IMG/VR virus record: IMGVR_UViG_3300042453_004661
Span: 1 to 64,000 of that record
Origin: a virus
Strand: one strand, 5' to 3'
Length of the DNA: 64,000 bases
Shown one piece after another: positions 22,729 to 61,822 of the stretch (the stretch's first letter is position 1; each line of letters opens with the position of its first letter). Below the pieces are notes generated by a model that searched no databases, was not told the origin of the DNA, and saw only the letters and a list, made by a program, of their open reading frames with translations. Made by a program: the position numbers and the translations under genes.

Positions 22729-22974
22729 ATGAACACTAACATCAATGAGGAGCTGTATTGGAATATGCCAGAGTATAACAATGTTGATTTGCCAGATCCT
22801 GTAGTTGAAGTTGTTTTTAAGTTTAGATCCCAAGAAGACTATGAAAAATTCCATGCCCTGGTAAAAGAGCATGTTTATGAGGGCAAGCGAGTCTTTGACG
22901 GGATGCAAAGAAAAGAGCGCAAGAGCGCCTGGTATCCTCTTCTAGAAAAGCCTTCCAACTATAAGTATGAATAA
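22729..22974 (+). CDS. Small partner protein of the TAGT-like glycosyltransferase
   Basis: WNMPEY...FRSQEDYEKF...SAWYP, a pattern I recall immediately upstream of this glycosyltransferase family. Confidence 0.55.
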   Translation: MNTNINEELYWNMPEYNNVDLPDPVVEVVFKFRSQEDYEKFHALVKEHVYEGKRVFDGMQRKERKSAWYPLLEKPSNYKYE

Positions 22975-23833
22975 GCCTAGATTCCCGGTATACATCGTCA
23001 GCAAGGGACGATACCAAAGAAGGCCAACCTCAAAATACTTAGAAAGTATTGGCGTCCATTATTACATCATAGTTGAAGAGAGCGAAGAGGAAGAGTATCG
23101 CAAAGTGGTCCAGGGCGAGGTTTTGGTACTGCCAGAGTCCTACAAGAAGCAGTACGATTGTTTCTGGAATGACGGCAACCCCAAAACTGGCCCAGGCCCG
23201 GCCCGAAACTTTGCCTGGGATCATGCAGTAGCTAATGGCCATGCGTGGCACTGGGTTCTGGACGACAATATTGAAGCATTCCAGAGATTCAATAACAACA
23301 TGAAAATCAAATGCGTAACCGGAAAGCCATTCTGGATTATGGAGGATTATGTCCTCAGATTTGAGAATATTGCATTAGCTAGTCCGGGATATTCCATTTT
23401 TTGCCCGTACTACGAAAGAAGACCGCCATTGCGCTGGAATACAAGAATATACTCTTGTCTTTTAATCAGGAATGATATCCCCTATCGCTGGCGTGGTCGA
23501 TACAATGAAGATACGGACTTATCTCTTCGAGTCCTCAAGGATGGGTGGTGTACTGTTGAATTCAATTGTTTTCTTCAAGAGAAAAGAGCTACCCAGACCG
23601 TCAAGGGTGGAAATGACAAAGAGTTCTACGCAGAAGAAGGCACATTAAATAAGTCTAAAATGCTTGTAGAGATGCACCCAGATGTGACCAGACTTACTCA
23701 AAAGTTTAATCGCTGGCATCATCATGTGGATTATGAAAGCTTTAGGCAAAACAATAAACCTATTTTGAAGCCAGGGATTGTTGTAGAGCCAAAGGTTAAT
23801 GATTTTGGAATGAAGCTCATAAAACTAAAGTGA
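22967..23833 (+). CDS. TET-associated/GREB1-like glycosyltransferase (DNA base hypermodification)
   Basis: PVYIVSKGR, ARNFAWDH, WVLDDNI, WRGRYNEDTDL and KGGN. Confidence 0.75.
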   Translation: MNKPRFPVYIVSKGRYQRRPTSKYLESIGVHYYIIVEESEEEEYRKVVQGEVLVLPESYKKQYDCFWNDGNPKTGPGPARNFAWDHAVANGHAWHWVLDDNIEAFQRFNNNMKIKCVTGKPFWIMEDYVLRFENIALASPGYSIFCPYYERRPPLRWNTRIYSCLLIRNDIPYRWRGRYNEDTDLSLRVLKDGWCTVEFNCFLQEKRATQTVKGGNDKEFYAEEGTLNKSKMLVEMHPDVTRLTQKFNRWHHHVDYESFRQNNKPILKPGIVVEPKVNDFGMKLIKLK

Positions 23834-47200: not shown

Positions 47201-50033
47201 TCTATTGAGGGCTAGAAAAGACCTCGTCACACAAGGTCCAAATACCGGAATTAGGATCAGGTCTGTCGGATATGGCGATAATGGCAAAAAGATTCGGGCA
47301 GGATTGGTTTATCCATCGGCTCCTCTTACTGCCCCATCTGCAAGTTATGAGTTTGATGCAGTCAATGAAACAATCAGCATCAATTCTGTTATGGGATCTG
47401 GCGCCGAAAGAATCATCGGCATGGGCCCAAATGCCCCTATCTATGTTTCGTATACGGGCTCTGGCCCATATACCTACAGAGTCCAGATGATTCCTCCTGT
47501 CGATCTTTCTAGCGTATTAGTCAATGACATGTGCGCCTTGGCTGATCAGACATTCAGCTCTGCCAACAGAGCAACCATGAGAGTGACAGCAATCACTAAC
47601 TTGGTAGACTCGGCAAAGACTTTCCAGCATTTGGTTGAGGAAGCCAAGGGCGATATCGTTGGCGGTACAAGCTTGTCGCTTACGACCTCTACTACTCAGA
47701 CTATTCGTCCAGGCGATAAGATTGTTAAAAAGTCATTGTATGCCCAGGCGTCAGTGATCGGGGCATCTACGGTCGATGTTCCTGTAGCTTCTAACTTCTC
47801 TGCTGGCCCATCAACTTTTACAGCAAATGCTATTACATTCAACTATACTTCATACACCAGTGCGACTGGTCAGTTTGCCGGGGTCACTCCTGCGCCTACA
47901 GGCTTGATTAACCCGGGCGATGATATTGTTCAGAGTGTAGCAAATGAAACTTCTTATGTAGTTTCTGGATCTGGGCCCTACACTATCTCCCCATCAATTG
48001 GAAGTGGTTCCAATTTCATTTACGAGATTACCCACGCTTCTTTGACCGCAAATGCTCCGATCTCTTTTTCTCCTGCTGTCAATGACAAGCTCCAGGTTCT
48101 TTCAAATATCTACAACATAAATACCATATTCTCTGCTACAGAATTTGGTGTTAATAATCCATTCCAGTTCACTGGATCTCAGGCGGGTGTATTTAGCAGG
48201 GTCATCCTTACCCTTAGCAGGCAACAGCCTGGGGTCAACGAGAGCGTCAATGCATTGAGTGCCCAATCTTTAAGGGTATTTGAGCTAGATGCAACGGTTA
48301 ATAATGCCCAGGCCATGATCGACGCTATCAACAATACTGCAGGAGTAAATCTTCTTGTAGAAGCCCTTAGCTCTAGTGGCTCAGATGGTACGGGAGTATT
48401 GACTCAGTCTACCGAAGATGTATTAGGCTCTGCATACGAATCACTCCTCAATGGGTCAGGAGTCATCTCTAGTTCGGCAAACTCTAGTCCCAATATGACA
48501 CTTAAGTATGCTCTAGATATGCCTCTTGAAATCGGGGAATTATTTAAAATTCAGCCAATCACGCCGAAGAACGCTGCAGACCATCTTGCAAAGAAGCAGA
48601 TTTCTGGTCTCTCTGTTGCAGCTGATGTCGCACTCGTCAATGTAGGCCGTAGCGTCCAGGTCAGCTCCAAGGTTCCTGGGGGATTTGGTCAGGTTTATGC
48701 GGTTGGCGGAAGAGCATCAAGCTCAACATTCCTTGATGTCAAGAATAATATCCAGGAAATCAGTGCCACCAAAGCAATTATCGAGCTAGATGCTTCTGCT
48801 CGAGAAGTCGTCCAGCCAGGCCATTTGGTGAAAGTTAGCCAGACTGGTCTTGCCAAGAAAGAATGGACCGCTGGAAGCCCGACCCCTACTGACACTATTG
48901 AGATCACGATCCCGTCTACAGGCGTAGGTCAGATTACTTGCTCAAAACCTTTTGCTTCTATTTATTCTTACACCCACACCGGAACAGTAGTATGGGCGGT
49001 AAGAAAACTGTCAAGGAATAGATACAGGTATGAGGCAATCTCTGGCACAGCAACTCTTCCTGCAGGCTATCAGTCTGGCGACTGGGTGCTTGTCGGGAAC
49101 GGATCAGCATATGCAGGGATTACACCTCCTAGCCTCTTCGCAAGTGCCAACCAAGGACTATTCCAGATAGTAGAAGCAGGATCTGTCTATTTTGATGTCG
49201 ATAATTCTTCTGGTGTAGAAGAGTATGTTTCTGCAAGTGCTAGCCCATTCTTGTTTGCGCCTTACCATTCTGCCCAGGTAGGCGACAAGATCGTACTCGA
49301 TGCCGAGGCCCCGGTTGCTACAGCCAACAAGGGCACATTCACTATTACTGAAGTAGTTGATGCGAATACAGTTAAGTATACTAATCCATCAGTTGAAATC
49401 CAGGCCCCAGTTGCGTTTGGGCCAATAACATCTTCTGTATATCTTTTGGACAGGGGATATTCAACTTATCGTCGAGTCGTTATGGTTCTACCGAAACCTT
49501 CCGATCCTTCTACACGATCTCTCATGGTCGTTACACCAGGGTACGATATGGCATTATTCAGCGAGTCTGCTAGTGCCCGAATTGAATTGCCAAACCGCCT
49601 CGGGTTCTCTTCCCAGCCAGTCCCGGGCATGAACGGGTATTCCTACTGGATCGGCCTCAAGCAAAGGGTTCAATACACCCTGGACGGATATGCTCCAGAC
49701 TCTGCTACATTCCCAGGTGTACGAGCTGCAGGGGTAGCGATTGAAGCAAGGGAGCCCCAGATCCAACGGGTTAGCTTGTCTATCAGGATCAAGACCAAAG
49801 AAGGGGTAGCCCTAAGTAGCATCTCTGACAGCATCAAGAATGCCGTAGTCGGATATGTCAACTCACTTGGTCTTGGCCAAGATGTTGTAATCTCAGAGAT
49901 TATTTCTTTGATTCAACAGACATCCGGGGTCGATGCGGTAGTATTTTTAATTCCAGCACCCGGCACTGAGCGTATTACAATAGCAGATAAGGCTATTGCA
50001 AGAACTAGCTCTAATGATGTGGTGTTGTCATGA
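44244..50033 (+). CDS. Giant baseplate wedge protein (gpJ/T4 gp6-like) with large insertions
   Basis: GSVWLTMIEA, TGTDLE, PGESGNV, GGKESETDAELRQR, and C-terminal YVNSLGLGQDVVISEI. Confidence 0.85.
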   Translation: MADIVLRSLQQIEGRMIAKLLAETDLNDLSPGSVWLTMIEAAAGSDFQTEGKLLQLMNIRNLDKTTGTDLEKLALELGVTPSRIGASPARAKVTIGDSAFTKVFSNIYSGLSSPVAGDTSIAIVDGSGFSASGTIYIARGFASYEAVSYISAVDSGPYWTLTLSSPLGKDHLVGEEVVLAQGGNRLIPAGTTVSAGSGVDFNTIVDYTILDGEDSLPNIDVTASTPGESGNVGRNKITQFSGSPFSTATVTNPDPANGGKESETDAELRQRVKDHVHNLGRGTKKAIYRAVIGVSDPDEGKRVISAFLREPAEAGQIGVLFIDDGTGFAPTFSGIGEEVLVTSAAGTEQFLQLQKWPVVKAQAASISLEPFKLVGGEQFLFEVDGTTETQTIPSSYFRSPGVVTAQEIAEAINTIYTTVEARAKDGRLFVTPTASDPDYIRVGVATNDANASVRFPTNRQYTIRLYKNDVLLEKSGRAGSLQSKPNSQWPVFASSETIQLQVDGIAFGMLITFTDADFAANTSSLTINGASASDWVKIFNLRIPGIQAKANDDGSFTLTSNLGNNDKSEVKIIGGSLNGTLFEPFAGTTGKGSDFKLNRLLGQIELAERLVEGDELKAGTVNTRAFFDTTENASFNLPLTLGSPGRMVIVANATTASVAVAQTGVITFTIPTAGVQRIAGSAGQFSSVRKDDYAFLYNTPRNALLKVKDVDPAGAYVDFFDPAPTGGSATINGASIRISFFRTSGIPQVFELPVGPEVTGSDLATAFNAQITGAKASITNGGAVRFQTLRFSSEGGLGLPVIAGSAFNLGIDEGSLQSNDPHVASIESADLAGYPTGRFTIATADNTLPYTQLNASGTPFPDVSFANRPVLTYIGSAQAIIRQPQEKLSSSQLLLRNYTPFQNIGLGADMRGTTSDGLELGEKDNIVFLIDDDATQKTFDIPMNLQGQVAGPSVPNLFQFDANDSSGANLGTSSRWLGYEFADYKLLLRARKDLVTQGPNTGIRIRSVGYGDNGKKIRAGLVYPSAPLTAPSASYEFDAVNETISINSVMGSGAERIIGMGPNAPIYVSYTGSGPYTYRVQMIPPVDLSSVLVNDMCALADQTFSSANRATMRVTAITNLVDSAKTFQHLVEEAKGDIVGGTSLSLTTSTTQTIRPGDKIVKKSLYAQASVIGASTVDVPVASNFSAGPSTFTANAITFNYTSYTSATGQFAGVTPAPTGLINPGDDIVQSVANETSYVVSGSGPYTISPSIGSGSNFIYEITHASLTANAPISFSPAVNDKLQVLSNIYNINTIFSATEFGVNNPFQFTGSQAGVFSRVILTLSRQQPGVNESVNALSAQSLRVFELDATVNNAQAMIDAINNTAGVNLLVEALSSSGSDGTGVLTQSTEDVLGSAYESLLNGSGVISSSANSSPNMTLKYALDMPLEIGELFKIQPITPKNAADHLAKKQISGLSVAADVALVNVGRSVQVSSKVPGGFGQVYAVGGRASSSTFLDVKNNIQEISATKAIIELDASAREVVQPGHLVKVSQTGLAKKEWTAGSPTPTDTIEITIPSTGVGQITCSKPFASIYSYTHTGTVVWAVRKLSRNRYRYEAISGTATLPAGYQSGDWVLVGNGSAYAGITPPSLFASANQGLFQIVEAGSVYFDVDNSSGVEEYVSASASPFLFAPYHSAQVGDKIVLDAEAPVATANKGTFTITEVVDANTVKYTNPSVEIQAPVAFGPITSSVYLLDRGYSTYRRVVMVLPKPSDPSTRSLMVVTPGYDMALFSESASARIELPNRLGFSSQPVPGMNGYSYWIGLKQRVQYTLDGYAPDSATFPGVRAAGVAIEAREPQIQRVSLSIRIKTKEGVALSSISDSIKNAVVGYVNSLGLGQDVVISEIISLIQQTSGVDAVVFLIPAPGTERITIADKAIARTSSNDVVLS

Positions 50034-50242: not shown

Positions 50243-51562
50243 ATGAGCAAACTACCTCCATTTTTTTCTAAGACCCAAGACCTTCAAAAAGCCGAGGATG
50301 AGACTATCAATCCTACGCTTGGCCTTGAGACTCCAAAGAAAATCATCAAGCTTAAAGAAGGACACAATAAAGGCCGTCAGGCTAAGGTAGTAGCTGAAAA
50401 CTCCCAAGAATTTAAGATCGTCCCCAGGACCAATCAAAAACCATTTAAGGTAGCTGGGGGGCCAGCCGATACTGCTGGTCAAATTCTTGATGAAGCAAAT
50501 AGTCCAATTGTATGGGAAAAGAATCGTAAACATGATATTTTGGCCCCAGGTGGGATTCACAAGAAAGAACACGAAGAAAAAGTAAAGAATATCTACCAAC
50601 CTAAAAAGGCCGAGCCTAATTTTGTATTTACAAAAGACAATCACCACCAAGGCATCCCTCATGATGAAGATCAAAAGAATCTAATTCATGGCATTGATCT
50701 TCGTGAGATTAAAAAGCTTGGCGATGCGGGAGGCGACTCAGATGACCTTGGATGGACCGCCGAGTGGGCAGCTTGTGGTGTTGGCAAGAATAAAGCCGGG
50801 AAAAGCTGTCTCGTCAAGGGTAGGATGCCGGATGAATTTCTAGATAAAAATTCTGGCATTGGTCGAGAGATGGCGTCAGATTATAAGTTATTCAGTACGG
50901 CACAGAGAGAAGCCGTTTATTACAATATAGCAAAAGCATTAGGGCTTCATAAATACATTCCTGTTACATCTGTTGTCCACGATCAAACCAAGGCCCCTGT
51001 AAAAAACTTTAAGAGGGCCCCACAGGATCATGGCCAGGCTGGCAATCATTACTCTGTCATGGAAATGATTCCAAATGCCAAGCATTACTCGGGCCTCCCC
51101 TCACAACTCGGCACAATGAAGAGAGCCCATGACAGTGGGGACCTACACAAGCTTGGCCTTATGAATGCTTTTTTGTATAATACAGATAGACATGGCAAGA
51201 ACTTCATGTTTAGTGAAAATAACAATAATTTTCACCTGATTGACCATGGCCTTACTTTTGGATATCGTGGAAGGCCATTTGTTATGCCTGCCTATCTTAG
51301 GATCGCCCATCTCGAGCATCGGCTTCCTGATGAAATACATCCGGAAGCCAGAAACTGGATCAATAATCTCAATATTGATGACATAAAAAAAGAGCTAGAC
51401 TCCCACGACATACCTATTCAGCACAAAAGAGCTACATTGGCTGCAATTCGAAAAGCAAAAGAATCGATTGGTGGAGATCCAGAGAATAAAAGAGCGTTTA
51501 GCTCACATCTAAGAGAGATAAGTAATGCAGGATTAAGATCATTCCTTAGAGGAGATGATTAA
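50243..51562 (+). CDS. PI3K/PI4K-like (HipA-like) kinase
   Basis: REAVYYNIAKALG...IPVT, catalytic NTDRHGKN, and LIDHGLTF. Confidence 0.8.
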   Translation: MSKLPPFFSKTQDLQKAEDETINPTLGLETPKKIIKLKEGHNKGRQAKVVAENSQEFKIVPRTNQKPFKVAGGPADTAGQILDEANSPIVWEKNRKHDILAPGGIHKKEHEEKVKNIYQPKKAEPNFVFTKDNHHQGIPHDEDQKNLIHGIDLREIKKLGDAGGDSDDLGWTAEWAACGVGKNKAGKSCLVKGRMPDEFLDKNSGIGREMASDYKLFSTAQREAVYYNIAKALGLHKYIPVTSVVHDQTKAPVKNFKRAPQDHGQAGNHYSVMEMIPNAKHYSGLPSQLGTMKRAHDSGDLHKLGLMNAFLYNTDRHGKNFMFSENNNNFHLIDHGLTFGYRGRPFVMPAYLRIAHLEHRLPDEIHPEARNWINNLNIDDIKKELDSHDIPIQHKRATLAAIRKAKESIGGDPENKRAFSSHLREISNAGLRSFLRGDD

Positions 51563-53401
51563 ATGATCAAATTAGGGTATTACAAATTTGGACATATTGA
51601 TCATGAATCTGGAGCCATGGCCGATGAAGGTATCGTGCATGTTGATGGAGAACATGTATCTGTAGTAGACGACCATGCGGGATACTTGGCGACTATTATC
51701 CCAGACGGATCTGTTGGTATGGAAGAAGGTGAGCATATTATGCGAAGCATCAATATGAATCAGTATTCCAGGTTTGTCTACATAGGCGATAAAGAAGAAG
51801 ATATTGCCGAGCATTATAATCCAGTTAATGCCAGTCCCGAACTCGAGAAGGGCATCAAGGACATGATGGCAGGAGCCATGATGGGTATTGCAGGCGCAGG
51901 CGGGATGCTGTATGCGCCTAGCGCAACAAACCAATCTGCAGTATCTAGCCCATCAGTTCCTGTTAGCCGGGCCAGCTCTGACTCTGAAATTGTTGACAAC
52001 CTTGCAAGGATCGAGTCTAGCGGTGGAAAGAATGTAGTCCACGGCATGACCGGAGACTCTGTCCATACAGATATTCAAAGAGCAGTTGGGCATACCGGAA
52101 ACCTCCCGTCTTCTGTAATTGAAGAGTCTGCAAAGAATCCGTATTTAAAAAATACCGATATCGGTCAAGGCGTTAGAAGAATTGCTGGGCTTGAGGGCTT
52201 TGCAACAGGAAACACATACAACACCAGATCCTATATTGAAAAGACTCCGGCAAAAGAAAAGTCAAAACATTACGCCAAGATCAACAAAATTACTCAGAAT
52301 CCTGAAAATGACCGAAAGATTACTGAGGCTCGAATCAAAAACCACCGAGACATATTTTCCGAACTCACCAAAGACCCGCATGAGCTAGAACTTTTGATTG
52401 CTCATGCTCATCATAATTATTACCTAAATACCAAGAAAATCTTCAGAAAGCATGGCATTAAAGGGATTATCAATCATGCCGGGGCAGAAGGTAATTATGT
52501 GAAAAAGTATGCCGAGACACTTCCTGATGGACATCCTACTAAAAACCTTTTTAATAAGCATTACAAGAAGAAATTCTTCAAGAAAAGCATTGCCGAAGAT
52601 TATGAGCTAGAGGATCTTCAAAAGTCTACCAAGCAATATAAAGAAATGCTTGGCGATGTAACCCAACACAAAGAAGCTTTTGATGTTGCAAAGAAAATGC
52701 CCAATTCAAACTGGGGAACTTGGGTCATTAGAAACTACAAGCAAAATCCAGAAAAATTTCATAGCTTAAAAGAAGAAATTGTAAATCATGCCGGACTTCA
52801 TGAGAATCTCGAATATTCTGGCGTTAGATTTGATAAAGAGCATGACTTTGATCATGGCATAGGCATGCTTAGGGATGCAAATAAGAAATTTGAAGAAAGA
52901 TTCTCTAAAGATACGCACATCATAATCCCGCAAGGTGAAAAAAAGGTCATGGATGCTGGAGATGGAATGGCTTGGTTTTCGGCTGGGAAATCATGGTGTC
53001 CCAGGGAAGCCAAAGCTATGGGCCATTGTGGGAATCAGCCTTCCGCAAGGCCTTTTCATGACTTATTTTCATTAAGAACTGTCCACAAGGTAAATGGCAA
53101 GGAATACCATGAGCCTCATGTCACTTTTATTCTTGATAAAGAAAATAACACTTTTGGAGAAATGAAGGGCCGGACAAACAAAAAACCAACTAAGCAATAT
53201 CATAATGCAATTGCCCAATTGTTGGCTAGGGGATATGTTCCGTTTGGTGGAGTCCATGCCCCAGACCAAGATTTTCATATTGACGATTTGAGTCCGGAAT
53301 TGAAGAAATTTGTTGCCGAAAAAAATATACGAGCCTTTATCAACTCTTCTGATCCAGAGTTGTCAGCAAAAGCTCTAGAGGCATCTATGGGGCGTTCTTA
53401 A
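51563..53401 (+). CDS. Multi-domain protein with lysozyme/SLT-like and PcfJ-like domains
   Basis: LARIESSGG...YVKK; EAKAMGHCG...FSLR...PHVTF...EMKGRTNKKP. Confidence 0.6.
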   Translation: MIKLGYYKFGHIDHESGAMADEGIVHVDGEHVSVVDDHAGYLATIIPDGSVGMEEGEHIMRSINMNQYSRFVYIGDKEEDIAEHYNPVNASPELEKGIKDMMAGAMMGIAGAGGMLYAPSATNQSAVSSPSVPVSRASSDSEIVDNLARIESSGGKNVVHGMTGDSVHTDIQRAVGHTGNLPSSVIEESAKNPYLKNTDIGQGVRRIAGLEGFATGNTYNTRSYIEKTPAKEKSKHYAKINKITQNPENDRKITEARIKNHRDIFSELTKDPHELELLIAHAHHNYYLNTKKIFRKHGIKGIINHAGAEGNYVKKYAETLPDGHPTKNLFNKHYKKKFFKKSIAEDYELEDLQKSTKQYKEMLGDVTQHKEAFDVAKKMPNSNWGTWVIRNYKQNPEKFHSLKEEIVNHAGLHENLEYSGVRFDKEHDFDHGIGMLRDANKKFEERFSKDTHIIIPQGEKKVMDAGDGMAWFSAGKSWCPREAKAMGHCGNQPSARPFHDLFSLRTVHKVNGKEYHEPHVTFILDKENNTFGEMKGRTNKKPTKQYHNAIAQLLARGYVPFGGVHAPDQDFHIDDLSPELKKFVAEKNIRAFINSSDPELSAKALEASMGRS

Positions 53402-53425
53402 TATTAGATTGGTAATATAAGGTGT

Positions 53426-56400
53426 ATGGCTATCCCGCCCAAAAAAATCTATACCCAGATGCAAAAGTCTGATTCAGATGGCCAGGCTCCTATCTCTTTT
53501 AATTTTAAAAGCCTTAAGCCGGAGCAGAAAGCAAAATTCCTTCAAAATCCTAATCTTCATCCAGATATACTTCATAAGTTAAGTGAGGATGATAATTTAA
53601 AGTTGTCAATAGCAGAGAATCCTAATACTCGCTCAGACACACTTCATAGGCTAAGCGATAGTGAGTATGGGATTGTAAGGGGTGCAGTAGCAGAGCATCC
53701 AAATACCCACCCAGACACGCTTCATAAGTTAAGTGAAGATAGGGATGATGATGTGAGGAGGATGGTAGCAGAGAATCCCAATGCCCATCCGGATACAATT
53801 CATAAGCTGAGTGGGGATAAGAATTCGCGTGTAAGGGAGGCAGTAGCAAAGCATCCTAACACCCATCCAGATATACTTCATAAGTTAAGTGGGGATAATT
53901 CTTTTATTGTAAAAGGAGCAGTAGCGAGAAATCCTAATGCCCATCCAGACACGCTTCGTAAGTTGAGTGAAGATGAGGGGGATTGGTCTGTAAGGGAGGC
54001 GGTAGCAAAGCATCCTAATATTCATCCGGACACGCTTCATAGGCTAAGTGAGAGTGAGTATGAGACTGTAAGGGAGGCAGTAGCAAGGAATCCAAATGCC
54101 CACCCAGATATACTTCATAAGTTGTGGAAAGACAAGTGGCCAAGAGTAAGATCTGCAGTAGCAGAGCATCCTAATACCCGCTCAGATATACTTTTTGGAT
54201 TATGTTACGATAGGGATTTTGAAGTAAGGGCTGGGGCAGCAAGAAATCCAAATATTCGTCCAGCTCTACTTGATAAGTTAAGTAGGGATACTCATTGGCC
54301 TGTAAGACAGGCAGCAGCAGAGCATCCTAATAACCATCCGGATATGCTTGATAAGTTAAGTAGGGATGTGGAGTGGGATGTAAGAGAAGCAGCCCGTAAA
54401 AACCCTAACCATCCAAATAACCAGATGAAAAAGTCTGATTCAGATAGCCAGACCCCTATCTCTTTTAATTTTGCAAACCTTAAGCCGGAGCAGAAAGCAA
54501 AATTCCTTCAAAACCCCAATGTTCATCCTAATGCGCTTCATGCTTTAAGCGGGGATGAGAATCATGAAGTAAGATTTGCAGTAGCAAAGCATCCTAATGC
54601 CCATCCAGATACACTTCATGGACTAAGTGAAAGAGAAGATGAGAATGAAAGTATAAGGCAGGCAGTAGCAAAACATCCAAATACCCATCCAGACACGCTT
54701 CATAAATTGAGTAAGGATGACGATTTAAAGCGGTTTGTGGCAATTCACCCAAATACCCATCCAGACACGCTTAATAGGTTAAGTAAAGACAAGTGGTCAG
54801 GAGTAAGAAGGGAGGTAGCAAGGAATCCAAATGCCCATCCAGATCTACTTCATAAGCTGAGCGAGGACAGGGATGTGTATGTAAGGGAAGGGGCAGCAAG
54901 GAATCCAAATGCCCATCCAGATCTACTTCATAAGTTAAGCGGGGATGAGAATCATGAAGTAAGATTTGCAGTAGCAAAGCATCCTAATGCCCATCCAGAT
55001 ACACTCCATAAGTTGAGTGGGGATAGCTTCGACTACAGCATAAGGGAGGCGGTAGCAATTCATCCCAATACCCATCCAGACATACTTCATAATTTAAGCG
55101 AGGATGAACATCTTTATGTAAGAGATGCAGTAGCAAAGAATCCAAATACCCGTCCAGATACTCTTCATAAATTGAGCGGGGATGAGGATGTAGATATAAG
55201 ACAGATAGTGGCCAGGAGTGCTAATGCTGGTCCAGAAACACTTCATAAGCTGAGTGGGGATAGGTCTTTTATTGTAAAAATGGAAGTGGCAAGGAATCCT
55301 AATACTCACCCAGATACACTTCATAAGCTGAATGGGGATGAGTCTTTTACTATAAGAGAGGCGGCCCGTAAAAACCCTAACCATCCAAATAACCAGATGA
55401 AAAAGTCTGATTCAGATAGCCAGACCCCTATCTCTTTTAATTTTGCAAGCCTTAAGCCGGAGCAGAAAATAAAATTCCTTCGAAACCCCAATGTTCGGCT
55501 TGATCTACTTCAGCAGTTAAGTGAGGATGAGGATGGAGATGTAAGGCAGGCAGTAGCGAAACATCCTAATACCCATCTAGATATAATTCATAAGTTGAGT
55601 GGGGATGAGCATAGCGGTACAAGGGCTATAGTAGCAAGGAATCCCAATATCCGTCCAAATATACTTCATGCATTAAGTCACGATAGGGATTTTGAAGTAA
55701 TGGCTGGGGCAGCAAGGAATCCAAATGCACATCCAGAAATACTTCAGAGGTTGAGTGAACATGAACATCCGTATGTAAGAATAGCGGTAGCAGAGAATCC
55801 TAATACCCATCCAGATATACTTCATAAGCTTAGTCAGGATGCGTATCAGCCTGTAAGAATGGCGGTAGCAAACCATAAAAATACCCACCCAGATATACTT
55901 AATGTGCTGAGTGATGATAAGGACGAGCTTATAAGAGAGGGGGTAGCAAAGAATCGCAATACCCATCCAGATACAATTCATAAGCTGAGTGGCGATAAGG
56001 ATGAGGATGTAAGATATGCGGTAGCAAGGAATCCAAATGCCCACCCAGATATACTTCATAGGCTGAGTCAAGACGATAATAGGTATGTAAGACAGGCGGT
56101 AGCACGACATCCCAGCACCCATCCAGACACGCTTCATAAATTAAGTGGGGATGAATTTTCTAGCGTAAGACAGGGATTGGCAATGAATCCTAATACTCAT
56201 CCGGATATGCTCAATAAGTTGGGCGGGGACAGAGATGGAGATGTAAGAGAAGCAGTAGCAAAACATCCAAATACCCATCCAGACACGCTTCGTAGGTTAG
56301 GTGGAGATTTAGATGTAGATGTAAGATATGCAGCCCTTCAACATCCTAACCATCCAAATAACCAGATGAAAAAGTCCGGTTCTACTCAGTTTGAAGACCC

Positions 56401-58762
56401 ATGGGACCAGGCTAAATACGATAGGGAAGAAGAGCAGTCTCTTGATAAAGCAGAATTCCTCACCGATGAAGATATTGCTTCAGATGACAAGGCTGATGGC
56501 ATTTATTTAATACCCCATAGCCATGAAAAAGATAGGATTGCTTCTTCAAGCAAATTTCATGGCACAGAGCTTAAGAGCGCATCAACACTATACAGGCATT
56601 ACAAGCATACTCCCCACCATCCTGTATCTCTTGGTCTCAAGTATTTGATTCATAGAATAGAAAATGCAAAAGACTATGACGAGGGGAATGCAGAAGAGCT
56701 AGATAATGATTTCTTGCAATTACATCAAGCGGGTAAGGCTTCAGAGAAAAACGGGTGGGTTAAATCTAGAGATTTGCAAGAATTTTATGAGAATCATGGC
56801 AAAAGACTAATTCCCCAGCTTATTGGTCACAAAAATAAGCTAGCAGAAGTCATCATGAAGCATCATCCGGAGTCAGTTGTCTATATTGATGGAAAACCGC
56901 ATGTAGCATTGACCAGGGGTCTAAATACTAAGATGCCAACCCAAGACCATGCATTGGCTAGCTATGCAGATAAAGACAATACTGGATTTGGCAGTCATAT
57001 GCATCATAGGTTTGTACCTCTTGATAATCTTTGGTATTCATATGCGTACGGCCCATACCCAGCTACAAGCCCAAGTTTTGGAAACGAACACGAATATCTT
57101 GTTTCTCCCCATAAGATCGTACCAGCAAAAAAAGAAGATATTAAAGAGATAGCCGGGAATAGAACTCTGTCACATGGATATATGCCTAATCTGGAAAGTG
57201 ACATAATAAATAACAAATTGTCTTTGGAAGATTTGCGTAAGGTTCATCCAGCATTGCTAGGAAGGGTCGTAATGAATTCTCTGGGCAATCGAGACCAGGA
57301 AACTCATGAGAAAGTTATTGATCATGTTTTGGACAAATTAGATCAACAAATTAAGTCTCCCAACATGAATAGCGACCTGGTCGGTTCCTTGCTCAATTCT
57401 TTGAAAAATGGCACTCTCAATACCTCAAAAGACATGACACATAGGGTTATACAAAAGATATCTGAAATTAACCATCGAGATCATGGGCATGTCTTGGCAA
57501 ATGATGCAACTTCCAAAATGAATGAAATAATAAGTAGGGAAGCGGGCGGCCTTCACGAAAAGACCTACAGAACTGCATTCGATCATGCGAAGTCGGCTTT
57601 TACATTAGAGGCTCAGAATTTAATGTTTGGCCTTGCTCAAAATCCATTCAGTCCTCAAGATGTGCTTCATGAATTATCCAATAGCGAAGTGCCTGGCATG
57701 AAAGAAAAAGTGGCAAGCAATTCAAATACTCATTCCGACACGCTCCATATCCTGTCTAATTTAGAAGACAATAGAGTTAAGCTTGCTGTTGCAGATAATC
57801 GATCTACTCACCCCAATACACTTCATGATATGGTAAAAAAGACAAAAACTCCAAAATCAATACACGGAACTTTGCCTCTTCCGGAAGATCATGATAATCT
57901 TAAGTTGCATAAAGTAATTGCTACCAATCCAAATACAATGGATGAAACTCATCATTTATTGATGGATAAATACCCATACTCAAGCCTTCCCGCACAAGCG
58001 ACTGATATCGGCATGCGTATTGCTTCTAATCCAAATATTTCAGATTCAATGATGAATAAGTTAAGCGTGAGTAGTTCGCCTGGAGTAAGGCGGAATATTG
58101 CCAGTAACTTAAAAACTAATGCAGATCTACTCCATAAACTAAGTGAAGATAATGATGATCATGTTAAATTCGCAGTAGCAAGCAATGAGAATACCCGCTC
58201 AGACACACTTCATAAACTAAGTGAAGATAGATATAATTTTGTAAGAACTGCAGTAGCAGAGCATCCCAATACCCATCCAGATACTCTTCATGCGATGAGT
58301 GAAGATCCAGTTGATGGAGTAAGGCGATCAGTAGCGGGAAGGTTAAATACTCGTCAAGATACGCTTCATAAAATGAGTGAGGATAAGTGGGCAGGAGTAA
58401 GGCAAGAGGTAGCAAGGAATCGCAATGCCCATCCAGACACACTTCATAAATTGAGCAATGATGAATATCTTGGCGTAAGAGAAGTGTTAGCAAGAAATCC
58501 AAGTATCCGCCAGGACACGCTTCATGTTTTAAGTAAGGATAAGGAAGATATGATAAGGCGGTCGGTAGCAAATCATCCTAATACCCATCCAGATACACTT
58601 CATGAGCTTAGTCAGGATTATAATGAGTTTGTAAGGGGGTCGGTGGCAAAAAATCCAAATACTCACCCAGACCTACTGGATAAGCTAAGTAAAGATGAAA
58701 GTCATGATGTAAGATGGGCAGTAGTAAATAATCCTAACTATAAGCCTAAGAATATGGGATAA
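53426..58762 (+). CDS. LRV/HEAT-like repeat polyprotein with an internal ADP-ribosyltransferase domain
   Basis: About 46 repeats of ~26 aa ([NH]PNTHPDxLHKLSxDxxxxVRxAVAx). ART motifs LTRG, LASYA and NEHEYLV. Confidence 0.8.
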   Translation: MAIPPKKIYTQMQKSDSDGQAPISFNFKSLKPEQKAKFLQNPNLHPDILHKLSEDDNLKLSIAENPNTRSDTLHRLSDSEYGIVRGAVAEHPNTHPDTLHKLSEDRDDDVRRMVAENPNAHPDTIHKLSGDKNSRVREAVAKHPNTHPDILHKLSGDNSFIVKGAVARNPNAHPDTLRKLSEDEGDWSVREAVAKHPNIHPDTLHRLSESEYETVREAVARNPNAHPDILHKLWKDKWPRVRSAVAEHPNTRSDILFGLCYDRDFEVRAGAARNPNIRPALLDKLSRDTHWPVRQAAAEHPNNHPDMLDKLSRDVEWDVREAARKNPNHPNNQMKKSDSDSQTPISFNFANLKPEQKAKFLQNPNVHPNALHALSGDENHEVRFAVAKHPNAHPDTLHGLSEREDENESIRQAVAKHPNTHPDTLHKLSKDDDLKRFVAIHPNTHPDTLNRLSKDKWSGVRREVARNPNAHPDLLHKLSEDRDVYVREGAARNPNAHPDLLHKLSGDENHEVRFAVAKHPNAHPDTLHKLSGDSFDYSIREAVAIHPNTHPDILHNLSEDEHLYVRDAVAKNPNTRPDTLHKLSGDEDVDIRQIVARSANAGPETLHKLSGDRSFIVKMEVARNPNTHPDTLHKLNGDESFTIREAARKNPNHPNNQMKKSDSDSQTPISFNFASLKPEQKIKFLRNPNVRLDLLQQLSEDEDGDVRQAVAKHPNTHLDIIHKLSGDEHSGTRAIVARNPNIRPNILHALSHDRDFEVMAGAARNPNAHPEILQRLSEHEHPYVRIAVAENPNTHPDILHKLSQDAYQPVRMAVANHKNTHPDILNVLSDDKDELIREGVAKNRNTHPDTIHKLSGDKDEDVRYAVARNPNAHPDILHRLSQDDNRYVRQAVARHPSTHPDTLHKLSGDEFSSVRQGLAMNPNTHPDMLNKLGGDRDGDVREAVAKHPNTHPDTLRRLGGDLDVDVRYAALQHPNHPNNQMKKSGSTQFEDPWDQAKYDREEEQSLDKAEFLTDEDIASDDKADGIYLIPHSHEKDRIASSSKFHGTELKSASTLYRHYKHTPHHPVSLGLKYLIHRIENAKDYDEGNAEELDNDFLQLHQAGKASEKNGWVKSRDLQEFYENHGKRLIPQLIGHKNKLAEVIMKHHPESVVYIDGKPHVALTRGLNTKMPTQDHALASYADKDNTGFGSHMHHRFVPLDNLWYSYAYGPYPATSPSFGNEHEYLVSPHKIVPAKKEDIKEIAGNRTLSHGYMPNLESDIINNKLSLEDLRKVHPALLGRVVMNSLGNRDQETHEKVIDHVLDKLDQQIKSPNMNSDLVGSLLNSLKNGTLNTSKDMTHRVIQKISEINHRDHGHVLANDATSKMNEIISREAGGLHEKTYRTAFDHAKSAFTLEAQNLMFGLAQNPFSPQDVLHELSNSEVPGMKEKVASNSNTHSDTLHILSNLEDNRVKLAVADNRSTHPNTLHDMVKKTKTPKSIHGTLPLPEDHDNLKLHKVIATNPNTMDETHHLLMDKYPYSSLPAQATDIGMRIASNPNISDSMMNKLSVSSSPGVRRNIASNLKTNADLLHKLSEDNDDHVKFAVASNENTRSDTLHKLSEDRYNFVRTAVAEHPNTHPDTLHAMSEDPVDGVRRSVAGRLNTRQDTLHKMSEDKWAGVRQEVARNRNAHPDTLHKLSNDEYLGVREVLARNPSIRQDTLHVLSKDKEDMIRRSVANHPNTHPDTLHELSQDYNEFVRGSVAKNPNTHPDLLDKLSKDESHDVRWAVVNNPNYKPKNMG
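53459..56377 (+). repeat. Three ~970-bp macro-units, each with 11 ~78-bp repeats
   Basis: QMxKS boundaries at 53459, 54425, 55397 and 56366. Linkers 54392-54524 and 55364-55496 are nearly identical. Confidence 0.9.
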
Positions 58763-58819
58763 TTGCATTTACCCCCGTAAGGGTATAATGTTCTTGTCGG
58801 CACAAAATCAATAACCCAT

Positions 58820-61800
58820 ATGTCAAAATCCCATAAAAAACAAGATGTTAAGAATGCAAGCTCGGGAAATCCTAGTTCTGGTATGCCAGAAAAGGTCCCA
58901 GGCGGTCTCTCGTCCGGCAAAAGCCCCAAGGATTTTGATCAACAGAAGCTAGCTGACGGTATCAAGGTCGAAATGGAGCATACGACAGATAAGGACATAG
59001 CTCAAGAGATTGCTATGGACCATCTGAGCGAAGATCCTGACTACTACAAGAAGCTCAAGGCTATTGAGGCAAAAAAGTCCGAACCACTTTCAAAGCCATA
59101 CGCTTCCGAGGCTCAGCGTCGATGGGCTCATACCCCGGCTGGCAAAGAAGCCCTGGGTGGAGAAAAAGCTGTAGCTCATTGGAATAAGGAGTCAAAAGGT
59201 AAGAAATTGCCAGAGCGGGTAGAGAAGTCCGAGACCGCACCATCCGAAGCTCCTTCACAAGAAGATCTATCTCAGCAATATGAAAAGCTATTGCATAATC
59301 ATTATCCAAAAGACTTTGTCGATACCGTAATCCGTGGAGACAAAGCATCTGCCCAATTTCTGGGAGGTCCGATATCTCATGAAAAGCATGGCAATTTGAT
59401 TGTCCGATACGCCGAAGGCCCGAAGAGTCTTGGCATTATGGGGCTATTTTCTGCTACTGGTCGTATCCGCCCATCGGAAGCAGAAGGCATTAAGAGCTGG
59501 CTTGGCCGAGCAAGATCGTCGTTAGATCAGGGCAAAGATGTTTATGTCAGCTTAAATCATCATTCTGAGCCTATTTTTATGAGGGCTCTCAAGGGTGGCG
59601 ATTTTGACTCAGAAACATTGTCTTCTCACGATTTTCCCTGGGGTACTTGGAAAACAGTAAAAGTTAGTAAGAAAAACATGGCTAAATCTGAAGACTTTGA
59701 AAAAGGAGCTAAGGGCGATTGGCAAAAGGAAGGCTACACAATCCACTATACCACCCCCAAAACAAGGCGAGCTTTTGCAACAAAAATTGGCTCACCACTT
59801 GTGGAAGATGGGGCAGTAAATGGCGATCACACTATTTGGGCTGTAAGCCCATCTGGAAAGAAGGTTGGGCATTTAGATATCGATAACCACCAAGATAATA
59901 GCATGTTTGCTCTTGAGACAGAAGTTGATGAAGATCATCAGAGAAAAGGCCTAGCCTCGGCCATGTACCGATTGGCAGAAGAAAAAACGGGAAGAAAATT
60001 CTCACCAAGCCCTCATCAAACAGATGAAGGTGCAGCTATCTGGAACCAGCCTAACCGCCCATTTGGTAAATCTGAAGATTTTGAAAAGGCGAGAGAGCCA
60101 GAGCCGGACTTTGATGTTGGGGCTGTATCAACGAGTAGCGATACCGAAAAAAAGCCCAAAGCTTCTGAATTAAATATCACGGTCAAAGGCAAGCCTGTTG
60201 CTCCTAATCTAGACATCAAAAATGCCGTTAAGTCTGAATTTGATCACAAAAACGGAATACTCCATACACCCAGAGGAAGCTTTCAGTTAAGGTTTCCAGA
60301 AAAAGGTGACAAGAAATATAAGAAGATTTTGAATTCCCCAGAAATTCAAGAAGTCCATAGAAGAGCTATGAAGAATTGGTTTAGGCTCAACGAAGTAGTT
60401 AGAAATGGCGGGCATCTTCCTGACGAGGTTGTGGCTCATGCAAATTTATTTTCTATCTTGTCTGCCAATACACCAGTTCCACAAACTGAACTTCTTTACT
60501 CAAGATTAAAAGATGTAATGGGACAACAAGGGCTTGATCCTAGAACAAAGAAATTTGGAGAAGCATTTTTGCCTGGCGGTGAAGGCCGGGAAGGCTGGAG
60601 AGCATCCGATAGCCCAACAGAAATGCCAGAACACTCGAGGGAATACTGGGAAGGAAGAGCAAAACCCACTATCACACAAATGAGGGCCAGTAAAGGAACT
60701 GGAAGGCAGGCCGGAGATATTGTTAAGCTCGGGTCTCTTGATGCATTTAGTGACAGGATTCAAAAATACCCACAGGCCCATAGATATATTGCAGATCTAG
60801 TTGCTCAGCATGGTGGGGATACCCAAAAGATCGTATCCCAGATGATGGCCGATAGATCAAATGGAAAACTCCCCGATGATCATCCAATGCAAATTGGCGT
60901 AGGCCTTGGATCTAAGACTTCACGATTTGCCGTATCAATGATGGGCGGAGGCCAATCTGTTGTCCCTGATACCCATTTTGTAAGGCACATATTTGGACTT
61001 GATTCAAATACGGATTCAGATACAATCCACTATCTCAAGAATGTTTTGTGGAAATACAAAAATCATCATATTTTGAACTCATTGGATCAATTTTACAGAG
61101 AAAATCATCCTGCCGTAGATTTTGTCAAGAATGCATACTTTGGCGGTAAGGATGATCCTCATTCGGTATTTCCGGCATTCTGGCTACACTGGCTAGGCAT
61201 TTCTCCGCACGAAAGAGAACAAGGGATTGGCAAGCCAGAAGGGGCCAAAAACATTAGCGATCATACTCCTTACTTCGACACCGCAAACGAGATCCTTGAT
61301 AGGCATGGGCTTGGAAATATTATTACCAAGTCCGAAGACGAGGAAAGACCACTGGTTCATAGAACTGCAAGTGCAGTTCATGAAATTGCCGAGAAGCTCG
61401 GAACATCTTTTGCTTCTATGATTTACTACTCCCATATCGTTCCTAAGCTTTTGGGAGAAACAACAGAAGATCATCATACGCATGCGATAGATGTAAATAA
61501 AGCCAAAAAAGTTCTTAAGCTTGCTAAGAGCCTGCTTATGGAAAAAATTGGTCAAATGACTCACAATACCCAGCCACTCTCTGTTGGGCATGATGTTTTT
61601 CAAAAAGAACTAGAATCTATCATGGGCGGATTCTCTGTTGACAACGGAGGACTTAGGTCAATGAATGACAAGAAAAAGTCTGAAGATCGTTCAAATTCAT
61701 TGAGTCAAGTTCCCAAAAAACACAGAAAGAAATTTGAAAAAGCGATGGACGAGGCCAAAAAGAAAGACAGCGTGTATGGCAGGCTCGTAATGCTTAAGTC

Positions 61801-61822
61801 CAAGATTAAGGATAAAAAGTAA
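58820..61822 (+). CDS. Polyvalent protein with DUF5661-like, GNAT and HhH-GPD DNA glycosylase-like domains
   Basis: GIKVEMEHT...IAMDHLSEDPDYY; EVDEDHQRKGLASAMY; GLGSKTSRF...VVPDTHFVR. Confidence 0.75.
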   Translation: MSKSHKKQDVKNASSGNPSSGMPEKVPGGLSSGKSPKDFDQQKLADGIKVEMEHTTDKDIAQEIAMDHLSEDPDYYKKLKAIEAKKSEPLSKPYASEAQRRWAHTPAGKEALGGEKAVAHWNKESKGKKLPERVEKSETAPSEAPSQEDLSQQYEKLLHNHYPKDFVDTVIRGDKASAQFLGGPISHEKHGNLIVRYAEGPKSLGIMGLFSATGRIRPSEAEGIKSWLGRARSSLDQGKDVYVSLNHHSEPIFMRALKGGDFDSETLSSHDFPWGTWKTVKVSKKNMAKSEDFEKGAKGDWQKEGYTIHYTTPKTRRAFATKIGSPLVEDGAVNGDHTIWAVSPSGKKVGHLDIDNHQDNSMFALETEVDEDHQRKGLASAMYRLAEEKTGRKFSPSPHQTDEGAAIWNQPNRPFGKSEDFEKAREPEPDFDVGAVSTSSDTEKKPKASELNITVKGKPVAPNLDIKNAVKSEFDHKNGILHTPRGSFQLRFPEKGDKKYKKILNSPEIQEVHRRAMKNWFRLNEVVRNGGHLPDEVVAHANLFSILSANTPVPQTELLYSRLKDVMGQQGLDPRTKKFGEAFLPGGEGREGWRASDSPTEMPEHSREYWEGRAKPTITQMRASKGTGRQAGDIVKLGSLDAFSDRIQKYPQAHRYIADLVAQHGGDTQKIVSQMMADRSNGKLPDDHPMQIGVGLGSKTSRFAVSMMGGGQSVVPDTHFVRHIFGLDSNTDSDTIHYLKNVLWKYKNHHILNSLDQFYRENHPAVDFVKNAYFGGKDDPHSVFPAFWLHWLGISPHEREQGIGKPEGAKNISDHTPYFDTANEILDRHGLGNIITKSEDEERPLVHRTASAVHEIAEKLGTSFASMIYYSHIVPKLLGETTEDHHTHAIDVNKAKKVLKLAKSLLMEKIGQMTHNTQPLSVGHDVFQKELESIMGGFSVDNGGLRSMNDKKKSEDRSNSLSQVPKKHRKKFEKAMDEAKKKDSVYGRLVMLKSKIKDKK

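What the first reader, a model, noticed from the sequence alone, without database searches (positions are those of the whole stretch)
53459..56377. Three capped cassettes of exactly 11 shuffled LRV/HEAT-like repeats, resembling a variable binder library
Seen: each cassette has a constant N-cap (SDSDxQxPISFNFxxLKPEQKxKFL), exactly 11 repeats by my count, and a C-cap ([NH]PNHPNNQMKKS). Cassette lengths are 322, 324 and 323 aa. The caps are nearly identical in DNA, but repeat order is not collinear. DRDFEVxAGAAR is unit 9 in cassette 1 and unit 3 in cassette 3. DxSFIVK is unit 5 in cassette 1 and unit 10 in cassette 2. The short DDxLK unit is 1 in cassette 1 and 3 in cassette 2. DENHEVRFAVAK is duplicated at 54551 and 54941. 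Variation concentrates in the DxxxxVRxx positions while the framework is fixed, as in alphaRep- or VLR-like binders. Inference: recombinational shuffling diversifies a binding surface under a strict length constraint, and cleavage at MKKS would release three different solenoids, for example against host defence proteins.
Basis: partly seen in the sequence, partly recalled or inferred. Interest (0 to 1): 0.88.

Follow-up and report, generated by a model that had tools for sequence, protein, structure and literature searches.

The report
Three variable repeat modules in phage effector
One large gene of a freshwater phage encodes three tandem helical-repeat modules, probably protein-binding, ahead of a likely ADP-ribosylating enzyme domain, and the modules differ sharply between close strains while the rest of the gene does not.

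Summary
Window 53459-56365 is the front of one 1778-aa ORF (53426-58762, +). It encodes three modules of 322, 324 and 323 aa. Each has an N-cap, 11 Pfam-LRV units and a C-cap. AlphaFold gives a confident HEAT/LRV solenoid with a disordered MKKSDSDSQTPI linker.

Caps are 90-95% identical in DNA with no synonymous differences. Unit interiors show no positional homology (p=0.16). A few units match at non-equivalent positions, including a 71-nt exact copy.

- The count of 11 is best explained by triplication of a whole module bounded by linker-coding direct repeats.
- Unit number is not conserved. Distant relatives carry 4, 10 and 18 units. In a close strain (97-99.8% identical flanks), a contig joins N-cap to C-cap across about 7 units.
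- Recombination does occur in this protein family.
- Cleavage at MKKS and an anti-defence role remain inference.

The gene resembles a phage polyvalent effector: an R-S-ExE ART-like domain and a 13-unit LRV array follow the modules. The scan had already noted this stretch from an overlapping window of the same genome.

The parts
53426..58762 (+). Single 1778-aa ORF (P0001): three LRV modules, an ART-like domain and a C-terminal LRV array
53459..54424 (+). Module (cassette) 1, aa 12-333: N-cap 53459-53545, 11 units 53546-54400, C-cap 54401-54424
54425..55396 (+). Module 2, aa 334-657: N-cap 54425-54511, 11 units 54512-55372, C-cap 55373-55396. AlphaFold pLDDT 92.4; the first 12 residues are disordered
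55397..56365 (+). Module 3, aa 658-980: N-cap 55397-55483, 11 units 55484-56341, C-cap 56342-56365
54377..54527 (+). Junction block between modules 1 and 2 (end of unit 11, C-cap, linker, N-cap, start of unit 1). It is 93% identical over 151 nt to 55349-55499
55349..55499 (+). Junction block between modules 2 and 3, partner of 54377-54527
54545..54615 (+). 71-nt exact direct repeat, copy 1 (unit 2.1 into 2.2). The partner is 390 nt (5 units) downstream
54935..55005 (+). 71-nt exact direct repeat, copy 2 (unit 2.6 into 2.7)
56366..57235 (+). Central domain shared with 13 polyvalent phage proteins. Invariant residues are R1164, S1179, E1221 and E1223 (R184, S199, E241, E243 in domain numbering). 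Probably an R-S-ExE ADP-ribosyltransferase
57641..58729 (+). C-terminal LRV array of 13 units (two carry insertions), followed by the C-cap NPNYKPKNMG
51563..53401 (+). Upstream ORF. Its residues 323-586 are homologous to the domain that directly precedes the LRV array in relatives P0022 and P0015

Best explanation
The stretch is the N-terminal 970 aa of one late-module gene of a roughly 125-kb tailed phage whose near-identical DNA is held in lake and freshwater metagenome runs.

What it encodes. There are three tandem, separately folding LRV (HEAT-like) alpha-solenoids. Each has an N-cap helix, 11 two-helix units and a C-cap. Disordered linkers of about 12-15 aa (...HPNNQ-MKKSDSDSQTP...) join them. 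An R-S-ExE ADP-ribosyltransferase-like domain and a 13-unit LRV array follow. The protein belongs with the polyvalent (multi-effector) proteins of phages. These are thought to be packed in the virion and delivered with the DNA.

How it arose. The three modules came from tandem duplication of a whole module bounded by linker-coding direct repeats, which is why each has 11 units. Since then the unit interiors have sat at the family's background divergence and have been patched by non-allelic gene conversion. The junction blocks have been kept alike by conversion among themselves.

What varies. Between close strains the module region is rearranged or replaced, while the enzyme domain and the C-terminal array stay collinear. 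Variation sits in the A-B loop and on one side of helix B.

Inferred function. The modules are variable protein-binding parts, either target or substrate recognition or decoys, of a delivered effector. They may be freed at the linkers by a protease.

Shown versus inferred. Architecture, fold, duplication signature, conversion patches and strain variability are shown. Packaging, cleavage, binding and enzymatic activity are inferred.
For: Architecture and family: (LRV E 9.4e-152).

Fold: one search gives pLDDT 92.4 with residues 1-3 and 5-12 below 50. One search matches the PP2A A subunit at E 1.8e-9, alphaRep entries, and 1lrv at TM 0.67 with rmsd 4.1 over 227 columns.

Duplication signature: CCAGATGMAAAAGTC is present at all 4 junctions.

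Caps against interiors: 92 of 92 same-residue codons are identical in the caps, against 296 of 440 in the interiors.

No positional signal: 0.670 against a null of 0.664 +/- 0.007, p=0.16. Units 2-10 alone give p=0.88. Identity within modules (0.65-0.67) equals identity between modules (0.66) and is close to identity with the C-terminal array (0.64).

Conversion: the 71-nt exact patch, and 5 of 5 differences between L002 and L003 lying within 44 nt of one unit.

Strain variability: a 2,644-nt contig in X2 and X3 has 484 nt where the window has 2,746 nt (53587-56332). It then runs collinear over 56333-58393 with 44 differences and 0 gaps. The joint 53974->56333 also appears in X4, which is from another study.

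Variable positions. In the homogenised array of relative L003, variable codons give pN/pS 2.3-2.7 while framework pS is 0-0.03.

Polyvalent context: homologues of the central domain are fused to GNAT, NUDIX, PI3_PI4-kinase-like, DUF5661, ART-PolyVal and LRV domains. The gene lies between a baseplate-J gene and a virion or tail-fibre-like gene.

ART-like domain: invariant R, S and ExE across 14 sequences. The top 8 VIA matches are all R-S-E ARTs, at Z 4.0-4.7.
Against: - No Pfam ART family matches the central domain at E<=1. The structural Z scores are below 5, which the tool itself calls weak.
- Packaging, delivery and cleavage have no direct evidence.
- [LIVMF].K[SAG] is not enriched in this ORF: 6 observed against 5.1 expected.
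- In the window, variable codons give pN/pS 0.93 at saturation. That fits relaxed constraint as well as it fits diversifying selection.
- The pN/pS above 1 in L003 comes from non-independent paralogous units.
- The close-strain evidence rests on short-read contigs laid at 85% likeness. A collapsed repeat could shorten a module, and the number of modules in that strain is unknown.
- Old triplication with cap homogenisation cannot be told firmly from recent triplication with interior overwriting.
- No protein with the same caps exists in the databases searched, so no orthologous set is available.
Confidence: 0.55

Rival explanations
1. This is a selected binder library: recombinational shuffling diversifies a binding face under a strict 11-unit constraint, and cleavage at MKKS releases three different solenoids that act on host defence proteins.
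For: Equal counts of 11, 11 and 11 with lengths within 2 aa. Non-collinear related units. Variable positions with alphaRep-like periodicity on helix B (the alphaRep positions are recalled, not tested). A disordered linker. KKS[DE] in relatives P0015, P0022 and P0002, by my reading of their sequences at domain borders. A strain-variable module region.
Against: Unit number is not held: 4, 10 and 18 in relatives, 13 in the same protein's C-terminal array, and about 7 in a close strain's module. The equal count is explained by module triplication. Only 3 pairs stand clearly above chance. No dedicated diversifier was found: no reverse transcriptase (0 matches), no LRV copy elsewhere in the record, and no meaningful inverted repeats. 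The target is unknown.
Confidence: 0.15
2. A structural or spacer role. The solenoids are inert rods or packing and ejection elements of a virion-internal protein. Their surface residues vary only because they are unconstrained, and module number and length drift freely.
For: Window variable codons give pN/pS 0.93, as expected for neutral surface sites. Unit and module numbers vary among relatives and strains. Net charge is near neutral at -4 to -6 per module. The gene lies in the structural gene block.
Against: pN/pS of 2.3-2.7 at variable codons of a recently homogenised relative array. The C-terminal LRV array of the same protein is conserved and collinear between strains while the N-terminal modules are not, so the variability is local rather than a general property of the repeats.
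Confidence: 0.2
3. An assembly artefact. The three modules are a mis-assembled or mis-ordered repeat from short reads.
For: In X1 no contig spans a whole module. Contigs break at the caps and at the 71-nt repeat. X1 may be the sample the record was assembled from.
Against: X1 contigs cover 6 distinct stretches inside the module region (records 2-7) with 0 differences. The three interiors are only about 67% alike, so they are distinct sequences and not copies of one. The reading frame stays open over 5.3 kb. The order of modules could still be wrong.
Confidence: 0.05

Closest known systems
Pfam LRV (PF01816) repeat proteins; the Azotobacter vinelandii LRV structure 1lrv
   Same: The repeat matches the family profile (E 9.4e-152, 21 stretches). 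The predicted fold matches 1lrv at TM 0.67 normalised to 1lrv, rmsd 4.1 A.
   Different: Here the repeats form three capped 11-unit modules in a phage multi-domain protein beside an enzyme-like domain. Most long LRV proteins found in the searches are cellular, many of them cyanobacterial, and have a single long array.
Phage polyvalent proteins (Iyer et al. 2017, PMC5512222; passages read by term search)
   Same: A large multi-domain protein in the late or virion gene block. Homologues of the central domain are fused to GNAT, NUDIX, kinase-like and ART-PolyVal domains. The paper proposes delivery with the DNA and proteolytic processing.
   Different: A term search of that paper found 0 occurrences of 'LRV' or 'HEAT'. 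No MPTase domain was detected in this protein. Tandem capped solenoid modules are not among the passages I saw.
T4 Alt, a packaged R-S-ExE ADP-ribosyltransferase (recalled; also cited in PMC7824862 passages)
   Same: R, S and ExE residues are invariant in the central domain. The fold weakly matches R-S-E ARTs. The gene sits in a virion gene block.
   Different: No sequence match to any Pfam ART family. Activity and packaging are untested. As far as I recall, Alt has no repeat arrays.
alphaRep artificial HEAT-like binders
   Same: alphaRep structures are among the Foldseek matches (6fsq, 6bzx, 4zv6). Variable residues sit at i, i+1, i+4, i+8 of the second helix, much like the randomised alphaRep positions, which I recall and did not test.
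   Different: This is natural rather than designed. Binding is not shown. The entropy pattern is usual for the natural family from which such scaffolds were derived.
Concerted evolution of tandem repeat arrays by gene conversion and unequal crossing-over
   Same: A 71-nt exact non-allelic patch, clustered differences in one unit between L002 and L003, homogenised arrays in P0015 and P0022, and junction blocks kept alike.
   Different: In the window the units are not homogenised (51-85% DNA identity). Only the caps are.

Membership tests
Pfam LRV (PF01816) / HEAT-like alpha-solenoid | Significant match of the repeats to the family profile above the curated cut-off | tested here: met
   483.9 bits against a cut-off of 21.6, E 9.4e-152, 21 stretches. 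LRV_2 scores E 3.5e-87.
Pfam LRV (PF01816) / HEAT-like alpha-solenoid | Right-handed superhelix of paired helices | tested here: met
   The AlphaFold model has pLDDT 92.4 and 11 helix pairs. Foldseek matches 1lrv at TM 0.67 and PP2A-A at E 1.8e-9. Handedness itself was not inspected.
Phage polyvalent proteins (Iyer et al. 2017) | Several unrelated effector-type domains in one polypeptide | tested here: met
   LRV modules plus an ART-like domain here. 13 homologues of the central domain carry GNAT, NUDIX, kinase-like, DUF5661 and ART-PolyVal domains.
Phage polyvalent proteins (Iyer et al. 2017) | Gene placed among late or virion genes | tested here: met
   Baseplate J lies upstream (PF04865 E 4.3e-19). 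A virion or tail-fibre-like ORF lies downstream.
Phage polyvalent proteins (Iyer et al. 2017) | Packaged in the virion and delivered with the DNA | not testable with these tools
   Needs virion proteomics.
Phage polyvalent proteins (Iyer et al. 2017) | Processing peptidase (MPTase) domain in the same protein (frequent, not universal) | tested here: not met
   No peptidase family among the Pfam matches of P0001 at E<=0.1. A separate subtilase ORF exists at 5854-6573.
R-S-ExE ADP-ribosyltransferases | Conserved Arg, Ser(-x-Ser/Thr) and Glu-x-Glu in order | tested here: met
   R184, S199, E241 and E243 are invariant in 14 of 14 sequences.
R-S-ExE ADP-ribosyltransferases | ART fold or profile match | tested here: inconclusive
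   The top 8 VIA matches are all ARTs, but at Z 4.0-4.7 only. Foldseek E is at least 0.7. No Pfam ART match at E<=1.
Diversity-generating retroelement target | Reverse transcriptase and a template repeat elsewhere | tested here: not met
   RVT_1 gives 0 matches in the record (the record is estimated 75% complete). No LRV-like copy outside this gene.
Shufflon or invertase-type switching | Inverted recombination sites flanking segments | tested here: not met
   Only 4 inverted pairs of 18-20 nt at 79-85% complementarity, with no pattern.

The most novel reading that the evidence does not exclude
The three modules are a natural, recombination-diversified repertoire of HEAT-like binders carried by a virion-delivered phage effector. 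Their variable A-B loop and helix-B residues are under diversifying selection. Strains swap or remodel modules to track changing host targets such as defence proteins or ART substrates. Linker-coding repeats serve both as protease sites and as in-frame recombination points for gaining and losing modules.
Probability: 0.2. Interest if true: 0.8.

Novelty: new variant of a known kind. Interest (0 to 1): 0.55.

Why it matters
LRV arrays are common in bacteria and their function is poorly known. I found no paper holding both 'leucine rich repeat variant' and 'phage', and no 'LRV' or 'HEAT' in the main polyvalent-protein paper.

If these modules are variable binding parts of a delivered phage effector, they would be a compact, stable, naturally diversified binder scaffold. 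They would also mark where the phage-host conflict is fought. The strain comparison already shows that variability is concentrated in the modules while the enzyme-like domain and the second array are conserved. That makes the locus a testable example of modular effector evolution through linker-coded repeats.

Tried and rejected
Searches for the same caps elsewhere all failed.
- Viral contigs with cap peptides: 14 stretches and 116 stretches matched a pattern, and none was a relative.
- Protein database, lengths 977-3112 aa: 161 hits among 8000 scored candidates, best 48% identity. Lengths 178-567 aa: 109 hits among 5479 candidates, best 46% for the top-scoring hit.
- Of the 242 other stored proteins (243 including P0001), 0 carried the N-cap motif.
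- Proteins of 568-976 aa and above 3112 aa were not searched.

Close relatives through the central domain were not found in viral contigs, metagenome contigs or genome contigs. The tools warn that records very near the window may be left out.

The metagenome scan with alignment A2 gave 21 loci. Only L006 and L009 showed LRV arrays to my unit HMM, with 4 units in a neighbouring ORF. My first regex count was too strict and I discarded it.

Other negative or dropped lines:
- An RNA structure in the junction block is rejected (z -0.55, 54 of 200 shuffles fold as well).
- Internal translation starts: no Shine-Dalgarno-like run precedes the internal ATGs. This was judged by eye only.
- DNA mimicry is rejected: net charge is -4 to -6 per module.
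- Head genes of L001 found only one homologue in this genome, so I could not check a capsid-maturation cleavage motif.
- KS[DE] is not enriched genome-wide (36 against 27.3 +/- 5.2) and [LIVMF].K[SAG] is not either (166 against 158.6).
- Megablast of the gene against the phage collection gave no match.
- The central domain against PDB sequences gave only E 1.7.

Read laying. Several bins of the module interiors have no cover at 85% or more in X2-X4. I do not use that as evidence, only the contigs that join across. No listed holder is on record as RNA.

Supplementary files of papers were not opened.
Full report
CONTEXT. The window is the first 64 kb of a single 124,585-bp virus record. The record is linear and estimated 75% complete. 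Nearly all long ORFs are on the + strand. The neighbourhood includes a tail sheath gene (18133-19920) and a 1929-aa baseplate-J/wedge gene (44244-50033). Beyond the window lies a virion or tail-fibre-like ORF (67393-70707). The finding lies between these, in one ORF, 53426-58762, 1778 aa.

Its neighbours look like effector-type proteins. One has weak PI3_PI4-kinase/HipA-like matches below the curated cut-offs (50243-51562). One is a 612-aa ORF (51563-53401). One is a 1000-aa ORF with DUF5661 and GNAT (58820-61822).

OBSERVATION. Three modules of 322, 324 and 323 aa run from the M of M[QK]KS to the Q of NNQ. Each holds a 29-aa N-cap, 11 units of 24-28 aa and an 8-aa C-cap. Pfam LRV matches at E 9.4e-152 in 21 stretches. 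The duplicated DENHEVRFAVAK lies in a 71-nt exact repeat, 54545-54615 and 54935-55005, which is 5 units apart. Per-position entropy is highest at alignment positions 14, 16, 17, 20, 21, 24 and 28, and low in the framework.

STRUCTURE. AlphaFold2 on module 2, with the three modules as the alignment, gives pLDDT 92.4 and pTM 0.81. The model has an N-cap helix (residues 21-27) and 11 helix pairs. Residues 1-3 and 5-12 (MKKSDSDSQTPI) have pLDDT below 50. The junction is therefore a flexible linker between separately folded solenoids.

Foldseek matches the PP2A A subunit (E 1.8e-9), alphaRep binders and 1lrv (TM 0.67, rmsd 4.1 A over 227 columns). Mapped on the helices, the most variable positions are the A-B loop and positions i, i+1, i+4 and i+8 of helix B. 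That periodicity fits one exposed stripe. I had no coordinates, so this is inference.

CAPS AGAINST INTERIORS. N-caps differ at 4-9 of 87 nt and C-caps at 0-2 of 24 nt. The longest junction match is 151 nt at 93%. In the caps, all 92 codon pairs that encode the same residue are identical. In the interiors the figure is 296 of 440 for positional pairs, with fractions of 0.64-0.70. Non-positional pairs give the same, 0.66-0.68. Fisher's test gives p 1.4e-14.

Mean DNA identity of same-position units across modules is 0.670, against a permutation null of 0.664 +/- 0.007 (p=0.16). For units 2-10 alone, p=0.88. Units are as alike within a module (0.65-0.67) as between modules (0.66), and nearly as alike to the C-terminal array (0.64). 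The interiors therefore carry no trace of collinear descent, and the caps are far younger or are homogenised.

NON-COLLINEAR RELATIONS. Using eight variable positions, pairs sharing at least 6 residues number 3, against 0.27 expected (p=0.005). Pairs sharing at least 4 number 34, against 21.0 expected (p=0.0075). None of the 34 is positional. The clear cases are 2.1=2.6, 1.9~3.3 and 2.2~3.1, followed by 1.5~2.10. Most units have no recognisable partner.

If a recent triplication had been scrambled by many conversions, I would expect many near-identical non-positional patches. Beyond the caps I see one 71-nt exact patch and a few patches of 60-70 nt at 85-86%. I therefore favour an old triplication whose junctions are kept alike by conversion, with occasional conversion patches in the interiors. 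I cannot exclude the other order of events.

WHY 11, 11 AND 11. All four junctions share CCAG ATG MAA AAG TC. These are the gene start into module 1, the junctions 1/2 and 2/3, and module 3 into the central domain. A module flanked by such a direct repeat is a ready substrate for tandem duplication, and each copy inherits its unit count. No selection on length is needed. The diverged units (51-85% identity) also offer little substrate for unequal crossing-over.

RELATIVES.
- The nearest proteins in a 5.8-billion-protein database are P0015 (48% identity) and P0022 (50%). DNA for this group came from four viral contigs.
- Their LRV arrays have 18, 10, 10 and 4 units. Each is a single array.
- The array follows a domain homologous to the window's upstream ORF 51563-53401 (33% identity, E 2e-30).
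- Their units are nearly identical to one another, which is concerted evolution.
- L002 and L003 are 99.9% identical over 5,891 nt. All 5 differences lie within 44 nt of the last LRV unit, a conversion-like tract.
- In the L003 array, variable codons give pN/pS 2.3-2.7, while framework pS is 0.00-0.03. This hints at diversifying selection, with the caveat that the paralogous units are not independent.
- In the window, variable codons give 0.93 at saturation and framework codons 0.38.

CLOSE STRAIN. Six runs hold parts of the stretch. X1 holds 0.93 of the sampled words and may be the source sample. Its contigs match with 0 differences but break at the repeats.

X2 and X3 (one study) and X4 (another study) hold a close strain. 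It shows 16 differences over 53000-53479, 44 differences and 0 gaps over 56333-58393, and 1 difference over 58375-59000.

In X2 and X3 one 2,644-nt contig aligns its bases 1-99 to 53488-53586 (N-cap and the start of a unit) and its bases 584-2644 to 56333-58393. It therefore has 484 nt where the window has 2,746 nt. From N-cap to C-cap that leaves 534 nt of units, or about 7 units. Between short framework matches lie stretches of 3-37 nt unlike the window. The joint 53974->56333 is also present in X4.

A second contig also starts at the N-cap, and a third contig runs from a C-cap into an N-cap. The strain therefore has at least two modules.

Caveats. These are k=31 short-read contigs laid at 85% likeness. 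A repeat collapse cannot be excluded, and I could not read the contigs themselves. Taken at face value, the module region is the strain-variable part of the gene, and the enzyme-like domain and the 13-unit C-terminal array are conserved and collinear.

REST OF THE PROTEIN. Residues 981 to about 1270 are shared with 13 large proteins that also carry GNAT, NUDIX, PI3_PI4-kinase-like, DUF5661, ART-PolyVal or LRV domains. In P0006 this domain is a different region from its PF18760 match. In the 14-sequence alignment, R184, S199, E241 and E243 are invariant.

The AlphaFold model has pLDDT 76.4. Foldseek finds nothing below E 0.7. The exhaustive aligner ranks eight R-S-E ADP-ribosyltransferases first, at Z 4.0-4.7, rmsd 4.2-4.9 and 117-132 aligned residues. 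These values are weak. I call the domain a probable ART. A 13-unit LRV array follows it.

MECHANISMS CONSIDERED AND NOT FOUND. There is no reverse transcriptase in the record. There is no LRV copy outside this gene. There are no meaningful inverted repeats. There is no RNA structure at the junction.

CLEAVAGE. In favour:
- The linker is disordered.
- KKS[DE] occurs in P0015, P0022 and P0002. By my reading of their sequences the sites fall between domains; this was not measured.
- Five of the six [LIVMF].K[SAG] sites in this ORF lie at module borders.
- The paper on polyvalent proteins argues for proteolytic processing (PMC5512222, passages).
- A subtilase ORF is present at 5854-6573.

Against: the motif is not enriched, and there is no direct evidence. 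I rate cleavage at about one in three.

LITERATURE. No paper in the library holds both 'leucine rich repeat variant' and 'phage'. 'LRV' does not occur in either PMC5512222 or PMC7824862. 'HEAT' does not occur in PMC5512222 and occurs once in PMC7824862, in an unrelated passage on a phage RNA polymerase subunit.

EARLIER NOTES OF THIS SCAN. The same stretch was noted from an overlapping window. I confirmed the 71-bp block. I had reached the R-S-ExE reading independently. The linker-repeat idea, noted there for the GNAT module, fits the junction repeats that I found here.

VERDICT. This is a new variant of a known kind, a phage polyvalent effector with tandem, strain-variable LRV solenoid modules.

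Noticed in passing
window 11732-12919 (+): A 395-aa phage ORF with a minimal CRISPR polymerase domain (mCpol PF18182, E 1.7e-13) and Cas10/Cmr2 palm2 (E 1.7e-07). It may be a phage-encoded nucleotide-signal enzyme.
   Followed up: no
window 5854-6573 (+): A 239-aa subtilase (Peptidase_S8, E 6e-23). It is a candidate protease for processing the large multi-domain proteins. No link has been shown.
   Followed up: no
window 56366-57235 (+): The central domain has invariant R, S and ExE residues and weak structural matches only to R-S-E ADP-ribosyltransferases. It matches no Pfam family and is shared by 13 polyvalent proteins.
   Followed up: partly
window 58820-61822 (+): A 1000-aa ORF with DUF5661 and GNAT domains and seven KS[DE] motifs, including KSEDFEK twice. 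It looks like a chain of modules joined by the same kind of linker.
   Followed up: partly
window 50243-51562 (+): A 439-aa ORF with PI3_PI4-kinase (26.2 bits, just under the cut-off) and HipA_C-like matches. It sits directly after the baseplate gene.
   Followed up: no
L002 vs L003 (L003 6191-6234): Two viral contigs are 99.9% identical over 5,891 nt. They differ at 5 sites, all within 44 nt of the last LRV unit of a P0022-like protein, which looks like a gene-conversion tract.
   Followed up: yes
window 22967-23833 and 6563-7318 (+): A beta-glucosyl-HMC-alpha-glucosyltransferase-like ORF (PHROG E 1.3e-51), which suggests modified DNA, and a NinI-like Ser/Thr phosphatase (E 1e-33).
   Followed up: no
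window 51563-53401 and 53426 (+): The upstream ORF ends 24 nt before the LRV gene. In relatives P0015 and P0022 its homologous domain and the LRV array are one polypeptide, so this is a split or fusion difference between lineages.
   Followed up: partly
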